Shown: in pieces, positions 27,415-54,992 of the stretch
How positions within the stretch are numbered: position 1 is the first letter of the stretch
Layout: every line of letters begins with the position of its first letter
Source: Eubacteriales bacterium
GTDB taxonomy: Bacteria; Bacillota; Clostridia; Oscillospirales; UMGS1783
Assembly (NCBI GenBank): GCA_045541395.1
Contig: JAZQIZ010000001.1
Span: 21,233 to 85,232 of the forward strand
Direction of reading: 5' to 3'
Length of the DNA stretch: 64,000 bases
The notes under the pieces: generated by a model
Told to the model about the DNA's origin: nothing
Seen by the model: the letters and a program-made list of their open reading frames with translations, nothing else
Database searches by the model: none
Translations under genes and position numbers: made by a program

Positions 27415-27443
27415 TTGACAAATCAGACCTTATGTTGTAGAAT
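27415..27443 (+). promoter_or_regulatory. tRNA operon promoter P1
   Basis: TTGACA, 17-nt spacer, TAGAAT. Confidence 0.7.
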
Positions 27444-27506: not shown

Positions 27507-27535
27507 TTGACAAAAGTTGATCCTCGTAGTATAAT
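27507..27535 (+). promoter_or_regulatory. tRNA operon promoter P2
   Basis: TTGACA, 17-nt spacer, TATAAT, ~40 nt upstream of tRNA-Val. Confidence 0.75.
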
Positions 27536-27578: not shown

Positions 27579-27654
27579 GGAAGCTTAGCTCAGCTGGGAG
27601 AGCATCTGCCTTACAAGCAGAGGGTCACAGGTTCGAGCCCTGTAGTTTCCACCA
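27579..27654 (+). tRNA. tRNA-Val(TAC)
   Basis: 76-nt cloverleaf. Acceptor GGAAGCT/AGTTTCC, anticodon loop CTTACAA, T loop GGTTCGAGCC, encoded CCA. Confidence 0.95.
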
Positions 27655-27659
27655 AGTAT

Positions 27660-27736
27660 GGCTCCGTAGTTCAGTTGGTTAGAACGCCGCCCTGTCACGG
27701 CGGAGGTCGAGGGTTCGAGTCCCTTCGGAGTCGCCA
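27660..27736 (+). tRNA. tRNA-Asp(GTC)
   Basis: 77 nt. Anticodon loop CTGTCAC, GGTTCGAGTCC, encoded CCA. Confidence 0.95.
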
Positions 27737-27768
27737 ATTCATCCTCAAAGCGGGGATGCAATGCCCAC

Positions 27769-27844
<76 letters not shown>

Positions 27845-27848
27845 ATCT

Positions 27849-27924
27849 GCGGAATTACCTCATCTGGTAGAGCGCCACCTTGCCAAGGTGGAGGTAGCGA
27901 GTTCGAGCCTCGTATTCCGCCCCA
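27849..27924 (+). tRNA. tRNA-Gly(GCC)
   Basis: 76 nt. Anticodon stem CCACC/GGTGG with loop TTGCCAA, AGTTCGAGCC, encoded CCA. Confidence 0.9.
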
Positions 27925-27957
27925 GCGCCCACGGTAAAACGTGAGCGCGTTTTATTC

Positions 27958-28032
27958 GGCGCCATAGCCAAGTGGTAAGGCAAAGGTCTGCAAAACCTCT
28001 ATGCCCCGGTTCAAATCCGGGTGGCGCCTCCA
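27958..28032 (+). tRNA. tRNA-Cys(GCA)
   Basis: 75 nt. Acceptor GGCGCCA/TGGCGCC, anticodon loop CTGCAAA, GGTTCAAATCC, encoded CCA. Confidence 0.95.
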
Positions 28033-28036
28033 GAAA

Positions 28037-28068
28037 AAAGTCCTGTTCGAAAGAACAGGACTTTTTTC
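28037..28068 (+). terminator. tRNA operon terminator
   Basis: agtcctgttc (28039-28048) pairs with gaacaggact (28053-28062), followed by T6. Confidence 0.9.
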
Positions 28069-28072
28069 AACT

Positions 28073-28236
28073 AAATCCACCCTAACGGGTGGGTGAAATA
28101 TTGCTTCGCAATGTGAAATTCTCGCTTCGCTCGAGTGAAATCGCTGCGGCGGTGGGTGGATTTAATTTCACATTTTGCGAAAGCAAAATATTTCATAATC
28201 CGAAGGATTATTTCATATCGCATAGCGATATTTCAT
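28073..28236. repeat. Divergent array of heptamer boxes (GTGAAAT x3, then ATTTCAY x4) interleaved with mini-hairpins
   Basis: Boxes at 28093, 28113 and 28135 in one orientation, and at 28165, 28190, 28210 and 28230 in the other. Hairpins at 28077-92, 28100-12, 28142-51, 28172-89, 28197-209 and 28217-29. See finding. Confidence 0.8.
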
Positions 28237-28254
28237 TACATACAACGCTCCGCA

Positions 28255-28283
28255 TTGATTTACTGCCTCTTTTATACTATAAT
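28255..28283 (+). promoter_or_regulatory. Probable tspO promoter
   Basis: TTGATT, 17-nt spacer, TATAAT. Confidence 0.55.
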
Positions 28284-28424
28284 ACGTGCAAGGTGGTGAT
28301 GTAATGTCCTTGCAAACTGTAGAAATCAATTCTGTTAAAATAACTTTCAATAACGTTTTTAGGTAGTTATAATTGGAGAATAAAAATTATTTCTTTTCAT
28401 AAACTGTACCGAGAGGTGTTTTTT

Positions 28425-28892
28425 ATGAAAATTCAATGGAAAAAACTAATAATCTGTATTCTGATTCCTTTAGCTGTTGGTGGTCTTTCTGCGTTTATTA
28501 CCAAAGATAATATGAAATTCTTTGATCAAATATCAAAACCGCCCCTAGCACCGCCGGGCTGGTTGTTTCCTGTAGCATGGAGCATTTTGTATATCCTTAT
28601 GGGTATAGCCTCATATATGGTTGTGATTTCAAATAATCCGTACCGTATTCGTACCGCTCTTACGGTTTACGGGCTGCAGCTCTTGTTTAATTTTATCTGG
28701 TCGCCCGTATTTTTTAATGCTAAGCTGTATCTTGGCGCATTCGCTATTCTATTATTGCTGCTTATTCTTATAATTTTTAACACTATACTCTTTTATAGAA
28801 TAAATAAGCTGTCAGGTTACCTCCTCATTCCTTATATTGTGTGGGTTACCTTTGCTGCTTACCTTAACTATGGCATTTATATATTAAATTAA
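28425..28892 (+). CDS. tspO: TspO/MBR family tryptophan-rich sensory protein
   Basis: Five TM segments. PPLAPPGWLFPVAWSILY and WSPVFF, the Trp-rich TspO pattern. The ATG at 28425 lies 8 nt after GAGAGG; the GTG at 28416 overlaps the SD. Confidence 0.8.
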   Translation: MKIQWKKLIICILIPLAVGGLSAFITKDNMKFFDQISKPPLAPPGWLFPVAWSILYILMGIASYMVVISNNPYRIRTALTVYGLQLLFNFIWSPVFFNAKLYLGAFAILLLLLILIIFNTILFYRINKLSGYLLIPYIVWVTFAAYLNYGIYILN

Positions 28893-29097: not shown

Positions 29098-30714
29098 ATG
29101 ACTATCGGTGAAAAAATACTTAAACTGCGTACATTAGCTAATATCTCTCAAGAGCAACTGGCGGAAAAAATATCAGTTTCCAGGCAGTCGGTTTCAAAAT
29201 GGGAAATGGATCAGGCTCTTCCTCAGATAGATAAGGTTCTGCTTTTATGTGAGCTTTTTAACCTTACTGCAGATGAACTGCTGCAGGATAAAATACCTCT
29301 TAAATCTGTTACAGAAGGAAGAAAGCCTAATAAGTACTTTGGTACTGACGGTTTTCGTGGTGAAGCCAACGTTAACCTTACCTCCGAACAGGCTTACAGA
29401 ATAGGGCGTTTTTTAGGTTGGTTCTATTCTTCCGAGCTTTCCGGCAGTAAAAAGGCAGGTTATAAGCCCCGCATTGTTGTCGGTAAAGACACAAGACGTT
29501 CCAGCTATAACCTTGAATATTCCATTGTTGCAGGAATAACTGCCTCAGGCGCTGATGCCTATATGCTCCACGTAACAACAACCCCCAGTGTTTCTTACGT
29601 TACAAGGCAGGATGAGTTTGACTGCGGAATTATGATAACCGCATCGCATAATCCTTTTTATGATAACGGTATTAAGGTAATAAACCGTTACGGTGAAAAG
29701 CTTGACGATAATACAACTGCGCTTATTGAGGCTTATATAGATAAAGATTATGCTACGCTTGGATTAAAAGGAGATATTCCTTTGGCAACAGGTGAGCGCA
29801 TTGGTTGTATTGTTGACTATGTTGCCGGCAGAAACCGCTACGTTGCATATTTGATCTCCCTTGCTTCTCATTCATATAAAAAGCTCCGTATTGGCCTCGA
29901 CTGTGCAAACGGTGCTTCCTGGACTATCGCCGGTGCAGTATTTGGCGCTTTAGGTGCCCAAACAGTTATTTTAGGTGCCGCCCCTGATGGTATTAATATT
30001 AATAACGGTTGTGGCTCTACCCATATGGAAAACCTTTGCCGCGCAGTTAAAGAACAGCATCTTGATATAGGTTTTGCCTTTGACGGGGATGCCGACCGTT
30101 GCATTGCTGTTGACGAAAACGGCAATGTGGTTGATGGAGATGCGATTCTTTATATTTTAGGCAAACGCCTGAAGGATAGGGGAATGCTTAACGGCAATAC
30201 TGTTGTTGCTACCGTAATGTCCAACAGTGGCCTTATTGCAAGCCTTGAAAAAATAGGCGTAAAATGTGAACAGACTACGGTCGGTGACCGTTTTGTATAT
30301 GAATGTATGCAGCAAAACGATTACTCCTTAGGCGGCGAACAGTCCGGCCATATTATCCTCAAAAAGTACGCTACAACAGGCGACGGCATATTAACAGCTA
30401 TTATGCTTGCGGAAGAACTGTGTGCTTCCAAACAGTCACTTTCAAAGCTTTGTGAACCTATTACGTTTTATCCTCAGCTTATGCTGAACGTAAGAGTAAA
30501 GGATAAGGCCGCGGTACTTAATGACAGTGAAGTAAAAAAGGCCTGCAATGAAGCAGAAAAGCTTATTAACGGTAAGGGCCGTGTTCTTTTGAGAAAAAGC
30601 GGTACCGAGCCTGTTATAAGGGTAATGGTTGAAAGCGAAACCGAAGAAAAATGCAAAGAGTATGCTCAGAGTATAGTAAATACAATTGTAGAAAGAGGGT
30701 ATGGCGTTGACTAA
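29098..30714 (+). CDS. glmM: Phosphoglucosamine mutase with N-terminal XRE-type helix-turn-helix domain (fusion protein)
   Basis: aa 1-63: IGEKILKLRTLANISQEQLAEKISVSRQSVSKWEMDQALPQIDKVLLLCELFNLTADELL (HTH_3-like). From aa ~79: KYFGTDGFRGEAN, active-site TASHNP, FDGDADR, GEQSGH. No internal start or stop between the domains. Confidence 0.9.
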   Translation: MTIGEKILKLRTLANISQEQLAEKISVSRQSVSKWEMDQALPQIDKVLLLCELFNLTADELLQDKIPLKSVTEGRKPNKYFGTDGFRGEANVNLTSEQAYRIGRFLGWFYSSELSGSKKAGYKPRIVVGKDTRRSSYNLEYSIVAGITASGADAYMLHVTTTPSVSYVTRQDEFDCGIMITASHNPFYDNGIKVINRYGEKLDDNTTALIEAYIDKDYATLGLKGDIPLATGERIGCIVDYVAGRNRYVAYLISLASHSYKKLRIGLDCANGASWTIAGAVFGALGAQTVILGAAPDGININNGCGSTHMENLCRAVKEQHLDIGFAFDGDADRCIAVDENGNVVDGDAILYILGKRLKDRGMLNGNTVVATVMSNSGLIASLEKIGVKCEQTTVGDRFVYECMQQNDYSLGGEQSGHIILKKYATTGDGILTAIMLAEELCASKQSLSKLCEPITFYPQLMLNVRVKDKAAVLNDSEVKKACNEAEKLINGKGRVLLRKSGTEPVIRVMVESETEEKCKEYAQSIVNTIVERGYGVD

Positions 30715-33410: not shown

Positions 33411-33660
33411 TGCCCTTCTCCTTTATGTGTTTAATAATATTTAAATAAAAAAGGACCATTTCACCCCTGTGTTTGGGACGAAATGCTCCGCGTTGCCACC
33501 CAATTTGACAGTAAAACTGCCCGCTCTTAGTAATTTCAGGCTTACAAAACCTACGGCTCCGAAAGCGGAACGCCTGTTCTTTGTTATCGGCTTTCACCAA
33601 CCGCCGACTCTCTGCAAACTTAAAACAAACTTATTTTTCTTCAACGCCGTATTATATTGT
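33411..33660 (-). promoter_or_regulatory. T-box leader (tRNA-sensing riboswitch) of serS
   Basis: The minus strand shows AGAGAG and GGTGAAAG stem-I elements. The T-box sequence AATTGGGTGGCAACGCGG is the complement of 33486-33503. The terminator is GGAGCATTTCGTCCC/GGGGTGAAATGGTCC followed by T6 (33447-33489). Confidence 0.85.
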
Positions 33661-54773: not shown

Positions 54774-54992
54774 AAAATAAAATTCGTGAGATGTTATGGA
54801 TACACCTCACGAATATATATCATGATAGCTCTCCACATAAATGTGACAGTATACTGCATATTCTGCAATATCCCAGCGGTAAAAATAACAGGCTTTAAAT
54901 TACCGCTTCGGCAAATACTCCTTTCATATGCCACAATGCCCGTATATAAGACATATTACTTATAGTATCCGCGCCTCTACCCATAGTTCATC
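54774..54992 (-). promoter_or_regulatory. Lysine riboswitch (L-box) with intrinsic terminator
   Basis: The minus strand reads GGGTAGAGGCGCGGAT...AAGTA...GAAAGGAG...TTGCCGAAGCGG...CCGCTGGG...ACTGTCAC...TGGAGAGCTATC. The terminator follows: TTCGTGAGGTG/CATCTCACGAA plus TTTTATTTT. Confidence 0.85.

What the first reader, a model, noticed from the sequence alone, without database searches (positions are those of the whole stretch)
28073..28236. Divergent array of ATTTCAY heptamers interleaved with covarying mini-hairpins downstream of the tRNA operon
A 164-bp element lies between the tRNA-operon terminator (ends 28068) and the tspO promoter (-35 at 28255). It is built from one heptamer in two orientations. 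GTGAAAT occurs at 28093, 28113 and 28135. Its complement ATTTCAC/ATTTCAT occurs at 28165, 28190, 28210 and 28230. Spacings are 20, 22, 30, 25, 20 and 20 bp, and 20 bp is about two helical turns. Each interval holds a short self-complementary segment whose stem sequence differs every time while the pairing is kept: ccaccc-taac-gggtgg (28077-92), attgc-ttc-gcaat (28100-12), a degenerate ctcgcttcgctcgag (28121-35), cgc-tgcg-gcg (28142-51), attttgc-gaaa-gcaaaat (28172-89), aatcc-gaa-ggatt (28197-209) and atcgc-ata-gcgat (28217-29). Read on the strand where the box is ATTTCAY, most hairpin cores are GCGAAGC, GCGAAAGC or CCGAAGG. These belong to the GAA/GNRA-loop class known to form unusually stable DNA and RNA mini-hairpins. 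Two arms of the same unit (box plus mini-hairpin) therefore diverge from a centre near 28142-28164. In addition, aaatccaccc (28073-82) is the exact reverse complement of gggtggattt (28154-63), which offers a long-range pairing alternative to the local ccaccc/gggtgg hairpin. The 71-aa ORF predicted here (28089..28304) is just this repeat read in one frame and has no SD. The element is not a CRISPR array, not a terminator (no U tract) and not an IS end that I recognise. Candidate roles are a REP/BIME-like element for a Y1 (RAYT/IS200-type) enzyme, an iteron-like protein-binding array phased on one helix face, or a multi-hairpin ncRNA.
Basis: partly seen in the sequence, partly recalled or inferred. 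Interest (0 to 1): 0.72.

Follow-up and report, generated by a model that had tools for sequence, protein, structure and literature searches.

The report
Mirror-image double Gut-1 hairpin repeat
The 164-bp element is two inverted copies of the catalogued but unexplained 'Gut-1' motif, forming one copy of a dispersed hairpin-array repeat of gut Clostridia that sits just behind tRNA-gene terminators and often in front of a small four-helix-bundle protein gene.

Summary
Window 28068-28238 holds two matches to Rfam RF01706 (Gut-1 RNA), head-to-head: + strand 28068-28146 (76 bits) and - strand 28160-28238 (54 bits).

The pair is the rule, not an oddity. About 100 distinct related loci from gut and rumen Oscillospirales MAGs and metagenomes share one module. 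In order it holds a stable-RNA gene 3' end (tRNA, RNase P RNA, 23S-5S-tRNA), a symmetric terminator, arm A, a centre, arm B and an outward promoter. A PF05635/TIGR02436 four-helix-bundle gene often follows.

Stems covary strongly (91.6% paired against 48% when shuffled). Loops and mismatches are strand-specific and mirrored. On the strand reading ATTTCAY, which runs outward in both arms, loops are cGNAg or GNRA and mismatches are purine-purine (72 against 2). Wobble pairs are about 0.7% of stem positions.

Near-identical copies lie in different contexts and break assemblies, so the family is mobile or recombining.

My best reading (about 0.4) is a REPIN/MITE-like non-coding repeat whose arms act as single-stranded, probably ssDNA, recognition sites. 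The window copy lacks the adjacent four-helix-bundle gene. RNA readings remain open.

The motif itself is already known. Its architecture, context and probable strand are new.

The parts
27579..28032 (+). tRNA operon Val-Asp-Phe-Gly-Cys. Its 3' CCA end abuts the module.
   Evidence: ARAGORN and Rfam tRNA hits. Consensus promoters lie at 27415-27443 and 27507-27535.
28033..28068 (.). hp0, a symmetric (bidirectional) intrinsic terminator: G-A6, a 9-bp core stem (16 bp counting the A/T runs), T6-C. It is part of the repeated unit.
   Evidence: Perfect 16-nt inverted repeat (I3). An A-run lies 5' of hp0 in 50 of 55 family members. hp0 is identical in L024 copies a and b although their upstream DNA differs.
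28068..28146 (+). Arm A. It matches Rfam Gut-1 (RF01706) on the + strand. Boxes are CTAAAT plus 3 x GTGAAAT. Hairpins are at 28077-92, 28100-12 and 28121-35.
   Evidence: cmscan 76.4 bits against a gathering score of 50, E = 7e-16.
28142..28164 (.). Centre. It holds a fourth hairpin (cgc-tgcg-gcg) and GGGTGGATTT. The latter is complementary to the start of arm A (28073-82).
   Evidence: I4. The same arrangement is seen, with covariation, in other loci.
28160..28238 (-). Arm B. It matches Rfam Gut-1 on the - strand. On the + strand it reads ATTTCAC plus 3 x ATTTCAT, with hairpins at 28172-89 (GAAA loop), 28197-209 (GAA) and 28217-29 (ATA).
   Evidence: cmscan 53.8 bits against a gathering score of 50, E = 4e-10.
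28207..28236 (-). Inward-facing promoter-like site made of two boxes: ATGAAA, 18 nt, then TG-n-AATAAT.
   Evidence: Promoter scan. TGnAATAAT lies at the same place in arm B in 51 of 82 family members, against 11 of 82 in arm A. Function is untested.
28255..28283 (+). Outward promoter (TTGATT-17-TATAAT) in front of tspO.
   Evidence: The related sequence CTTTTATGCTATAAT follows the orthologous element in L120. TATAAT occurs within 80 nt downstream in 17 family members on the + strand and 1 on the - strand.
28425..28892 (+). tspO (PF03073), the downstream gene. It is not part of the repeat.
   Evidence: ORF list and homologue search with precomputed Pfam domains.

Best explanation
What it is. 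The element is one complete copy of a mirror-symmetric, non-coding repeat of about 170-190 bp, found in gut Oscillospirales. Each arm is an instance of the Rfam 'Gut-1 RNA' motif. The repeated unit has a fixed order:
1. its own symmetric terminator (hp0);
2. arm A: 4 boxes and 3-4 short hairpins, closed by a start/centre complement;
3. arm B: 4-5 boxes and 3 longer hairpins;
4. usually an outward-facing promoter.

How the family behaves. It acts like a REPIN/MITE-type dispersed element. Near-identical copies lie in unrelated contexts. Some genomes carry many copies. Larger relatives use the arrays as their two ends.

Where it lodges. It sits by preference directly behind the 3' end of stable-RNA genes, in one orientation. 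In one large clade it lies directly in front of a PF05635 four-helix-bundle gene.

Proposed mechanism (inferred). The arms work in single-stranded form, more likely as ssDNA than as RNA. The active strand is the one that reads ATTTCAY, which runs 5'->3' outward in both arms. The variable hairpins fold. They hold 4-5 unpaired heptamers at a fixed short distance for a sequence-specific protein that mobilises or recombines the module.

The window copy. It has no adjacent PF05635 gene. Its local side effect is to separate the tRNA operon from the tspO promoter.

Shown: identity, architecture, covariation, strand asymmetry, context, and copy behaviour in relatives. Inferred: the ssDNA state, the binding protein and mobility of this particular copy.
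For: Identity. Two Gut-1 hits lie head-to-head in the window.

The pair recurs. It appears in more than 25 MAG loci and upstream of 56-59 of 65 PF05635 loci.

Hairpins are under constraint.
- 91.6% of cells pair against 47.8% in shuffles.
- There are about 2930 Watson-Crick pairs against about 95 non-Watson-Crick in 98 distinct composites.

Strand asymmetry is mirrored between the arms.
- Loops are TTC/TGC/TTGC in arm A and GAA/GCA/GCAA/GTAA in arm B.
- Purine-purine mismatches number 72 on the ATTTCAY strand against 2 on the other (p = 3e-19).
- The loop-closing pair is C-G in 50 of 65 units.

Arguments for ssDNA.
- 60% of loops are triloops, mostly cGNAg.
- Wobble pairs are only about 0.7% of stem positions.
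- d(GCGNAGC) and d(GCGNNAGC) are the extraordinarily stable DNA mini-hairpins, and their RNA versions are much weaker (PMC13037366; PMC3201870).
- Natural examples are ssDNA signals: the G4 origin, RSF1010 ssiA and N4 promoters.

Mobility or dispersal.
- L024 copies a and b differ at 2 of about 210 bases from the hp0 A-run onward, yet follow different upstream DNA.
- L244 and L246 are 98% identical from 3 nt before hp0, but one follows a protein gene and the other tRNA-Arg.
- Modules 91-98% identical follow tRNA-Asn, tRNA-Cys or neither.
- Five contigs of one k141 assembly stop 139-141 nt into the repeat.
- L042, L057 and L075 carry the arrays as the two ends of 400-650-bp elements.

Variable box spacing of 16-28 bp is tolerated. 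This fits hairpin-bridged single-stranded boxes, not helical phasing on duplex DNA.
Against: - No enzyme was found. Among 143 ORFs flanking arrays, only PF05635 is enriched, and no transposase, integrase or Y1 family has two or more members.
- No target-site duplication is visible at the junctions examined.
- Only one copy lies in this 64-kb window. The rest of the source genome could not be read.
- GNRA loops and tandem G.A pairs are equally good RNA motifs. The G.T asymmetry is not significant (14 against 7).
- A conserved extended -10-like sequence in arm B, together with the conserved bidirectional terminator, would fit an RNA product.
- The strong bias for stable-RNA genes and the PF05635 link are not explained by a plain MITE model.
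- The four-helix-bundle proteins are not basic (pI 6.3-8.5).
Confidence: 0.4

Rival explanations
1. The element works as structured RNA, but on the strand opposite to Rfam's annotation. A transcript would start at the extended -10-like box in arm B (TRTG-n-AATAAT, - strand). It would cross the centre and arm A as AUUUCAC-hairpin units and end at hp0, which terminates in both directions. That gives an sRNA of about 165 nt (roughly 28200 to 28034, - strand). Its unpaired heptamers between hairpins would bind a multimeric protein. The neighbouring Avd-like four-helix-bundle protein is the obvious candidate.
For: - TGnAATAAT lies at a fixed position in arm B in 51 of 82 composites, against 11 of 82 in arm A. 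The window site was flagged by the promoter scan.
- hp0 has an A-run making it bidirectional in 50 of 55 composites.
- The structurally favoured strand of arm A is the - strand.
- GNRA loops and tandem G.A pairs are classic RNA motifs.
- PF05635 genes are preceded by the composite in 56-59 of 65 loci. The same box-hairpin architecture with different boxes sits upstream of a PF05635 gene in Akkermansia.
- A PF05635 homologue has a solved structure, 2RLD, with 5 chains. PF05635 resembles DGR Avd (PMC10053308).
Against: - It does not explain why arm B is optimised on the + strand.
- Wobble pairs are about 0.7% of stem positions, which is very low for an RNA.
- Triloops dominate, whereas stable RNA hairpins usually carry tetraloops.
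- The promoter-like sequence is simply a box followed by the conserved AAT foot of a hairpin.
- The four-helix-bundle proteins are near-neutral.
- No PF05635 gene lies within the 64-kb window.
- No expression data are available.
Confidence: 0.25
2. The element is a bidirectional fail-safe terminator or insulator. Polymerases that read through hp0, or that arrive from downstream, meet an arm in which each stable hairpin is followed by AUUAUUUCAC. That is a U-rich tract carrying a TTNTTT-type pause motif. The array therefore shields the highly transcribed stable-RNA unit and the next promoter from each other.
For: - The element sits between a terminator and an outward promoter in nearly all loci.
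- It follows highly transcribed genes: tRNA, RNase P RNA and the end of an rRNA operon.
- On the favoured strand each hairpin is followed by a T-rich box.
- The two arms would serve the two directions of transcription.
- Terminator-like calls fall on the - strand at hairpin 1.
Against: - The scan finds no terminator-like site in arm B on the + strand.
- The U tracts are short, only 3 consecutive U.
- Strict conservation of the full heptamer, and of alternative heptamers in other lineages (ATATCAC, GATATAAC), points to sequence-specific recognition, not mere U-richness.
- It does not explain multicopy spread or the larger variants.
- In each direction the 'active' arm is met second.
Confidence: 0.13
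3. The element is a double-stranded DNA operator or iteron-like array. A DNA-binding protein would recognise the 7-bp boxes in duplex DNA upstream of the outward promoter and regulate tspO here, or the four-helix-bundle gene elsewhere.
For: - Arm B lies roughly 20 to 100 bp upstream of the outward promoter.
- Boxes are direct repeats within an arm and inverted between arms.
Against: - Duplex binding gives no reason for every spacer to be a hairpin with compensatory changes.
- It gives no reason for strand-specific loops and mismatches.
- Spacing varies from 16 to 28 bp, so boxes fall on different helix faces.
- The downstream genes differ from locus to locus.
Confidence: 0.07
4. The Rfam reading is taken at face value. 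Two convergent Gut-1 sRNA genes would be expressed in the GUGAAAU sense, one from each strand.
For: - Both arms reach the curated Rfam threshold in that orientation.
- Weinberg et al. 2010 rated the motif a certain RNA on covariation grounds (PMC2864571).
Against: - Arm A starts 0-4 nt after the T-run of a strong terminator, so there is no room for a promoter.
- In that sense the loops are UNC and the mismatches are pyrimidine-pyrimidine. Purine-purine mismatches are 72 against 2 in favour of the other strand.
- The 2010 paper gives no expression data and no context.
Confidence: 0.05
5. The 71-aa ORF 28089..28304, or the 50-aa ORF on the - strand, encodes a protein.
For: Open frames exist.
Against: - Among relatives, spacer lengths differ by numbers that are not multiples of three, so no frame is kept.
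- The conservation pattern is boxes plus paired stems, not codons.
- There is no ribosome-binding site.
Confidence: 0.01

Closest known systems
Gut-1 RNA motif (Rfam RF01706; Weinberg et al. 2010, PMC2864571)
   Same: Each arm matches the model over its full length and above the gathering score. The matched pattern is four (G)UGAAAU boxes and three covarying hairpins. Relatives come from gut and rumen metagenomes, as in the original description.
   Different: The published motif is a single array with no context and no function. Here it is half of a mirror-image composite that carries a terminator and a promoter and is tied to stable-RNA genes and a PF05635 gene. The strand-specific signals favour the strand opposite to the Rfam annotation.
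REP / BIME / REPIN elements with their RAYT (Y1 HUH) enzymes
   Same: Both are extragenic, multicopy and built of hairpins flanked by a short conserved single-stranded motif. Both occur as inverted doublets that lie after terminators. Both are thought to act as ssDNA.
   Different: - The motif is ATTTCAY, not GT[AG]G.
- Three to four units in direct order form each arm, instead of alternating units.
- Every hairpin has a different stem.
- No Y1 gene was seen in the flanks.
- The host is Firmicutes rather than Proteobacteria.
Pneumococcal BOX elements and other bacterial MITEs (RUP, Correia, ERIC). This comparison rests on my own knowledge.
   Same: They are modular non-coding intergenic repeats with a variable number of internal modules and complementary ends. 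They can carry promoters or terminators and break short-read assemblies.
   Different: - No sequence similarity is known to me.
- No target-site duplication or parent IS was found.
- The hairpins covary rather than being copies of one sequence.
- This family has a strong preference for the 3' flank of stable-RNA genes.
Natural DNA mini-hairpin signals: G4/St-1/alpha3 complementary-strand origins, RSF1010 ssiA/ssiB and phage N4 hairpin promoters (review PMC13037366)
   Same: They share cGNAg and cGNNAg hairpin cores, including CCGAAGG as in ssiA. These act in ssDNA as entry sites for primases or polymerases. As I recall, ssiA and ssiB lie on opposite strands of oriV.
   Different: Those are single hairpins in replicons. 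This element is an array of 6-7 hairpins with heptamer linkers, chromosomal and multicopy. No primase or replication gene is linked to it.
PF05635 / TIGR02436 ORFs inside 23S rRNA intervening sequences and CPR rRNA insertions (PMC11270868); DGR Avd (PMC10053308)
   Same: The same protein family is again found attached to stable-RNA genes and next to inverted-repeat, hairpin-rich non-coding DNA.
   Different: Here the gene lies downstream of a terminated tRNA, RNase P RNA or rRNA unit rather than inside the rRNA. No reverse transcriptase is adjacent. The window copy has no such gene at all.
Integron attC sites
   Same: Structure is conserved while sequence is not. The site is an imperfect dyad with 7-nt conserved boxes, acts as folded ssDNA, has a fixed orientation next to cassettes, and was first seen as a dispersed repeat. 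Tandem arrangements of module, genes and module occur (L244, L246, L262).
   Different: - The RYYYAAC/GTTRRRY core sites are absent at the right end.
- There are many local hairpins rather than one long stem with extrahelical bases.
- No IntI-type integrase was found nearby.

Membership tests
Rfam RF01706 Gut-1 RNA | Covariance-model score at or above the curated gathering score (50 bits) over the full model | tested here: met
   76.4 bits (+ strand, 28068-28146) and 53.8 bits (- strand, 28160-28238), both covering model positions 1-77
Rfam RF01706 Gut-1 RNA | Four UGAAAU boxes separated by three covarying hairpins | tested here: met
   Alignment to the model. Covariation is 91.6% paired against 47.8% shuffled
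Rfam RF01706 Gut-1 RNA | Functions as an RNA transcribed in the annotated (GUGAAAU) sense | tested here: inconclusive
   No expression data are available. Indirect evidence is against it. There is no promoter room after the terminator. Loops and mismatches favour the opposite strand, 72 against 2
REP/BIME/REPIN | Extragenic palindromic units present in many copies per genome | tested here: inconclusive
   Related MAGs carry many copies (JAZTZP01: at least 8 contigs). The window has one locus in 64 kb. The rest of the source genome was not readable
REP/BIME/REPIN | Conserved GT[AG]G tetranucleotide at the 5' foot of the hairpin, and the same stem sequence in all copies | tested here: not met
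   The flanking motif is ATTTCAY. Of 1176 spacers, 959 are distinct
REP/BIME/REPIN | Inverted doublet arrangement | tested here: met
   Arms A and B are inverted in the window and in about 100 related composites
REP/BIME/REPIN | Cognate RAYT (Y1 HUH) gene, typically flanked by the repeats | tested here: inconclusive
   No Y1_Tnp family appears among the 25 commonest Pfam families of 143 flanking ORFs. Whole genomes were not searchable
MITE (non-autonomous DNA transposon) | Terminal inverted repeats | tested here: met
   The arms are mirror images. In L042, L057 and L075 they bound 400-650-bp elements
MITE (non-autonomous DNA transposon) | Target-site duplication and a related autonomous IS with a transposase | tested here: not met
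   No duplication at the junctions of L024 a/b, or of L244/L246 compared with L247. No transposase is enriched
Plasmid-type iterons | Direct repeats at a constant helical phase next to a rep gene | tested here: not met
   Spacing is 16-28 bp and variable. No rep gene is nearby
Integron attC | RYYYAAC ... GTTRRRY core sites and an IntI integrase nearby | tested here: not met
   Only the left junction TTTCAAC resembles a core site, and the right end is ATTTCACT. No integrase is enriched
Intrinsic terminator array | GC-rich hairpin followed by a run of at least 5 T in 8 | tested here: not met
   The scan finds no such site in arm B on the + strand. It finds only hairpin 1 on the - strand. By direct reading hp0 itself is a perfect hairpin with T6
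CRISPR array / type III antitoxin RNA repeats | Identical direct repeats with unique non-palindromic spacers (CRISPR), or identical tandem units next to a toxin gene (type III) | tested here: not met
   The repeats are 7 nt, the spacers are palindromes and the arms are inverted. No cas or toxin gene is adjacent

The most novel reading that the evidence does not exclude
The double Gut-1 composite would be the cis site of a previously unrecognised kind of mobile cassette that homes to the 3' flank of stable-RNA genes. Its arms would be recognised as folded ssDNA, in an attC-like or REPIN-like way. The Avd-like PF05635 four-helix-bundle protein is also found inside rRNA intervening sequences. It would be the element's own targeting or mobilisation factor. 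On this reading Rfam's 'sRNA' label and strand for Gut-1 are wrong. The window copy would be a gene-less derivative.
Probability: 0.15. Interest if true: 0.8.

Novelty: new member of a known kind. Interest (0 to 1): 0.55.

Why it matters
Gut-1 has been in Rfam since 2010 with one sentence of description and no function. This window and its relatives show four things:
- The motif is half of a mirror-image module.
- It has a fixed place in genomes, behind the terminators of tRNA, RNase P RNA and rRNA units and in front of a promoter.
- It is tightly linked to an uncharacterised protein family (PF05635/TIGR02436) already known for living inside rRNA genes and for resembling the DGR factor Avd.
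- Its structural signals point to the opposite strand, and perhaps to DNA rather than RNA.

That turns an orphan motif into testable hypotheses about a repeat family common in human and ruminant gut Clostridia. It also matters practically, because these repeats break metagenome assemblies next to tRNA genes.

Tried and rejected
- **Source genome.** Exact look-ups of window proteins failed, so copies could not be counted genome-wide.
- **Empty-site search through tspO relatives.** L120 (72% TspO identity) carries the element. L241-L243 have a different synteny and no element, so they are uninformative.
- **Window against L120 as evidence of in-situ selection.** The elements are 73% identical with a compensatory change. 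The same stems recur in L262 and L324, so this may only reflect a shared subfamily.
- **Viral pattern scan.** By position and context the hits look mostly like chance. Only L224 was confirmed as a real module. One 'unverified bacteriophage' record also carries the module.
- **Hand-drawn structure on a gapped MAFFT alignment.** It was misregistered and gave meaningless counts. I replaced it with gapless units.
- **First G.T against A.C count (0 against 9).** This was an artefact of a strict stem rule. The relaxed recount gives 14 against 7, which is not significant.
- **Other libraries.** PADLOC and PHROGs give nothing for the four-helix-bundle protein.
- **Not attempted.** I did not build my own covariance model. 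No predicted structure of the four-helix-bundle protein was made.
- **Considered and rejected.** CRISPR, type III antitoxin repeats, attC, phased A-tract bending (the 25-bp period of arm B is out of phase) and sigma-70 promoters at the centre.
Full report
**1. What is in the window**

The region reads as follows. The tRNA-Cys gene ends at 28032 with an encoded CCA. A perfect hairpin follows at 28033-28068, G-A6-GTCCTGTTC-GAAA-GAACAGGAC-T6-C, which reads as a terminator in both directions.

Next comes CAAC-CTAAAT. After that there are three hairpins, each followed by GTGAAAT, then a fourth small hairpin and GGGTGGATTT. The second half reads ATTTCAC followed by three hairpins, each followed by ATTTCAT.

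Seven ATTTCAY matches lie within 144 bp. The whole 64-kb window has 49, against 31 +/- 6 in shuffles.

**2. It is a catalogued motif, present twice**

A scan against Rfam gives two matches to RF01706 (Gut-1 RNA) that span the full model and reach the gathering score of 50:
- + strand, 28068-28146, 76.4 bits;
- - strand, 28160-28238, 53.8 bits.

No other Gut-1 match lies in the window.

The only paper in the library that mentions the motif is Weinberg et al. 2010 (PMC2864571). It lists 43 representatives. It says only that the motif is found in human-gut environmental sequence and in no sequenced organism.

**3. The pair is the unit**

A pattern scan of one genome per species returned 119 loci. 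By record title about 70 are Clostridia, Oscillospirales or Christensenellales MAGs from human, ruminant and bird guts.

In more than 25 of them a + array is followed about 28 bp later by a - array. An alignment of 27 oriented composites (A1) gives this consensus, with stem-forming segments in brackets:

CAAC-GAAAT-[AAATCCC..GGGATTT]-GTGAAAT-[hairpin]-GTGAAAT-[hairpin]-GTGAAAT-[gcc-tgc-ggc]-gtgaGTGGATTT-ATTTC-ATTTCAC-[hairpin]-ATTTCAC-[hairpin]-ATTTCAC-[hairpin]-ATTTCACT

The arms differ in a consistent way. Arm A has short spacers, with box periods of about 25, 18 and 20 bp. Arm B has long spacers, with a period of about 25 bp.

The start of arm A (GAAATAAATCC) is the reverse complement of the centre (GGATTTATTTC). 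When hairpin 1 changes, the centre changes with it:
- CCACCC with GGGTGG in the window, L033 and L088;
- TTGCCC with GGGCAA in L072 and L263;
- TCGTTCC with GGAACGA in L120 and L261.

The mean complementary run is 5.66, against 3.48 +/- 0.09 when partners are permuted.

Rfam's model detects arm A everywhere but arm B only near threshold. That probably explains why the motif was described as a single array.

**4. The hairpins are under selection, on a particular strand**

I took 65 distinct units of identical length, so the alignment has no gaps (A4).
- The 7-bp stem is paired in 91.6% of cells. The shuffled value is 47.8 +/- 2.0%, and 0 of 500 shuffles reach the observed value.
- There are 196 cells with changes on both sides, against 63 in shuffles.
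- Slid controls give 31-41% paired.
- All four Watson-Crick pair types occur at six of the seven stem positions; the loop-closing pair has three.
- The loop-closing pair is C-G in 50 of 65 units.

In 98 distinct oriented composites the + strand gives these counts:

| Arm | Watson-Crick | pur.pur | pyr.pyr | G.T | A.C |
|---|---|---|---|---|---|
| A | 1349 | 1 | 18 | 1 | 4 |
| B | 1580 | 54 | 1 | 10 | 6 |

Read on the strand where the box is ATTTCAY, purine-purine mismatches number 72 against 2 on the other strand (p = 3e-19). Many of them are tandem G.A. G.T wobbles are 14 against 7, which is not significant.

The loops are mirrored in the same way:
- arm A, + strand: TTC 58, TTGC 34, TGC 30;
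- arm B, + strand: GAA 60, GCAA 24, GCA 23, GTAA 13, GTTA 13.

Sixty per cent of loops are triloops. The favoured strand therefore runs 5'->3' outward from the centre in both arms, and it carries cGNAg and GNRA-type loops. This is opposite to the Rfam annotation of each arm.

**5. DNA or RNA?**

The loop set is that of the 'extraordinarily stable' DNA mini-hairpins d(GCGNAGC) and d(GCGNNAGC). Their RNA versions are much less stable: the Tm of r(GCGAAAGC) is 39 C (PMC13037366). The C-G closing pair matters for d(GNA) loops (PMC3201870).

Known natural occurrences are ssDNA signals: the G4-type origins, RSF1010 ssiA (which contains CCGAAGG) and N4 hairpin promoters.

Triloop dominance and the near-absence of wobble pairs (about 0.7% of stem positions) make me lean to ssDNA, at roughly 55:45. 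GNRA loops and tandem G.A pairs are equally good RNA motifs, so this remains an inference.

**6. Genomic context**

ARAGORN places a tRNA gene of the same orientation 31-47 nt upstream of arm A in about 20 of 30 oriented composites. Many identities are represented.

Reading the flanks adds three tRNA 3' fragments, in L032, L045 and L002. Rfam adds an RNase P RNA ending 17 nt before the element in L098. It also adds a 23S-5S-tRNA operon end in L317.

Among 55 distinct oriented composites with adequate flanks:
- 45 are preceded by CCA plus an A-run;
- 50 have the A-run that makes hp0 symmetric;
- TATAAT lies within 80 nt downstream in 17 cases on the + strand and 1 on the - strand.

The module is therefore stable-RNA 3' end, bidirectional terminator, arm A, arm B, outward promoter.

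**7. A linked protein family**

In nine loci of the first set, a 115-119-aa gene starts 14-52 nt after arm B. It matches PF05635 (23S_rRNA_IVP, 87 bits) and TIGR02436 'four helix bundle protein' (98 bits). It has a solved homologue, 2RLD, with five chains.

I searched metagenomes with this protein and obtained 80 loci at 74-95% identity. Of the 65 with at least 300 nt upstream, 59 have arm A, 56 have arm B, and 43 have a + strand tRNA within 450 nt.

The gene that follows the four-helix-bundle gene varies: a MazG-like reading (by eye), a P-loop 'DNA topology modulation' kinase, or a protein that reads like an ADP-ribosylglycohydrolase.

In Akkermansia (L003), a mirrored box-hairpin array with different boxes (TTATATC / GATATAAC) lies about 140 nt upstream of a 48%-identical PF05635 gene.

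PF05635 is uncharacterised. It is known from ORFs inside 23S rRNA intervening sequences and CPR rRNA insertions (PMC11270868), and it resembles DGR Avd (PMC10053308).

The window has no such gene (tblastn). The proteins are near-neutral, with pI 6.3-8.5.

A Pfam census of 143 ORFs flanking arrays shows PF05635 as the only specifically enriched family. No transposase, integrase or Y1 family has two or more members.

**8. Mobility**

- L024 holds two copies 2.7 kb apart. They differ at 2 positions from the hp0 A-run onward. One follows tRNA-Asn and the other a protein gene.
- L244 and L246 share a 98%-identical module starting 3 nt before hp0, after a 525-aa ORF and after tRNA-Arg respectively.
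- L316, L318, L319 and L320 share 91-98%-identical modules from 4-5 nt (some pairs 28 nt) before hp0, behind tRNA-Cys, tRNA-Asn or neither.
- L244 and L246 carry a second hp0 plus arm A after the cargo gene, at a point where L247 has an ordinary terminator.
- In one MAG assembled with k = 141, five contigs stop 139-141 nt after the outer boundary of a related repeat.
- L042, L057 and L075 show 400-650-bp elements whose two ends are the arrays. The genes between separate arrays in L042 and L057 are housekeeping genes.
- I saw no target-site duplication.

Some left boundaries fall 19-28 nt inside the tRNA 3' part. Exchange by recombination between the conserved tRNA 3' segments is therefore possible.

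**9. The window copy**

It is complete, with both arms, the centre and hp0. It lies between the tRNA operon and the tspO promoter (TTGATT-17-TATAAT).

The nearest relative found, L120 (TspO 72% identical), has the element in front of tspO but behind a membrane-protein gene. The elements are 73% identical. Hairpin 1 and the centre change together, and one stem shows a compensatory change, ATCGC/GCGAT to ATGGC/GCCAT. The same stems recur in L262 and L324. I therefore read this as a shared subfamily rather than as proof of selection in place.

**10. Mechanism**

I rank the explanations as follows.
1. A REPIN/MITE-like dispersed repeat whose arms are single-stranded recognition sites, probably ssDNA: 0.40.
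2. An RNA on the ATTTCAY strand: 0.25. For example, an RNA of about 165 nt could start at the conserved TRTG-n-AATAAT in arm B (51 of 82 composites; window site). It would end at hp0 and might bind the four-helix-bundle protein.
3. A bidirectional fail-safe terminator or insulator: 0.13.
4. A duplex operator array: 0.07.
5. The Rfam reading as annotated: 0.05.
6. Protein-coding: 0.01.

The hairpin-bridged display of unpaired heptamers explains why box spacing can vary from 16 to 28 bp. None of the models yet explains both the stable-RNA preference and the PF05635 link.

**11. Verdict**

The element belongs to a family already in Rfam, so it is a new member of a known kind. Its real architecture, its context and its likely strand were not described in the literature I could search, and its function remains open.

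Noticed in passing
L033 (about 60 nt after arm B), L084, L102:1775-1840, L244:1660-1730, L262:2835-2890: A recurrent motif of about 60 nt, ...GAGAGTTCGAATTCAT..CAAAA..AAAAYATCTTTTTT. It has a T-arm-like core and a T-run. It lies next to composites in several unrelated MAGs and has no Rfam match at gathering score. It may be an unannotated small RNA or a tRNA remnant.
   Followed up: no
L003:5850-6030 and L003:3200-3350 (Akkermansia MAG); L120:1-66: The same architecture occurs with other heptamers. L003 has TTATATC / GATATAAC, mirrored, upstream of a PF05635 gene. L120 has ATATCAC / ATATAAC at a contig end, followed by the same CTTTTATGCTATAAT promoter. This suggests the boxes co-evolve with a partner.
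   Followed up: partly
window 29098-30714 (+): The 538-aa ORF reads like a phosphoglucosamine mutase with an N-terminal XRE-type helix-turn-helix. Pfam on its syntenic L120 counterpart lists HTH_3 plus PGM_PMM I-IV. This is an unusual fusion, conserved with the downstream hexapeptide-repeat and glucosamine-isomerase genes.
   Followed up: no
window 54818-54987 (-) and 33471-33653 (-): A lysine riboswitch (104 bits) and a T-box leader (97 bits, just above the gathering score of 93) are found by Rfam.
   Followed up: no
window 27415-27443 and 27507-27535 (+): Two tandem near-consensus sigma-70 promoters (TTGACA-17-TAGAAT and TTGACA-17-TATAAT) lie in front of the five-tRNA operon.
   Followed up: no
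window 28284-28424 (+): An untranslated stretch of about 140 nt lies between the tspO promoter and the start codon. It has a small hairpin (TGCAAGG..CCTTGCA, 28287-28314) and no Rfam match.
   Followed up: no
L075:1780-1960: The 650-bp array-ended element contains its own tandem repeat of about 30 nt (..TATCGCTACTTTCTTCTGCGT..).
   Followed up: no
L246:2345-2662, L262:2339-2836, L290:2387-3850: The gene after the four-helix-bundle gene differs between loci and often overlaps its stop codon. It is MazG-like, a P-loop 'DNA topology modulation' kinase, or a 128-aa ORF plus a protein that reads like an ADP-ribosylglycohydrolase. The arrangement looks cassette-like.
   Followed up: partly
L045:640-660, L002 (upstream of 1753, - strand), L032:790-805: tRNA 3' fragments (T-arm, acceptor strand and CCA, without a 5' half) directly precede hp0. 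This is the pattern expected where an island has integrated into the tRNA gene and displaced its old 3' end.
   Followed up: partly
L247:3192-4340: An ORF that reads like an IS30-family transposase (by eye, not scanned) lies about 500 bp downstream of a module. It is probably incidental.
   Followed up: no
L324 (MT835590.1, 'unverified bacteriophage', human faeces) and L224 (IMG/VR contig): Complete modules (terminator, double Gut-1, four-helix-bundle gene) occur in two records labelled viral. L224 also has two tRNA genes upstream. It was not resolved whether these are truly phage, prophage or misbinned chromosome.
   Followed up: partly
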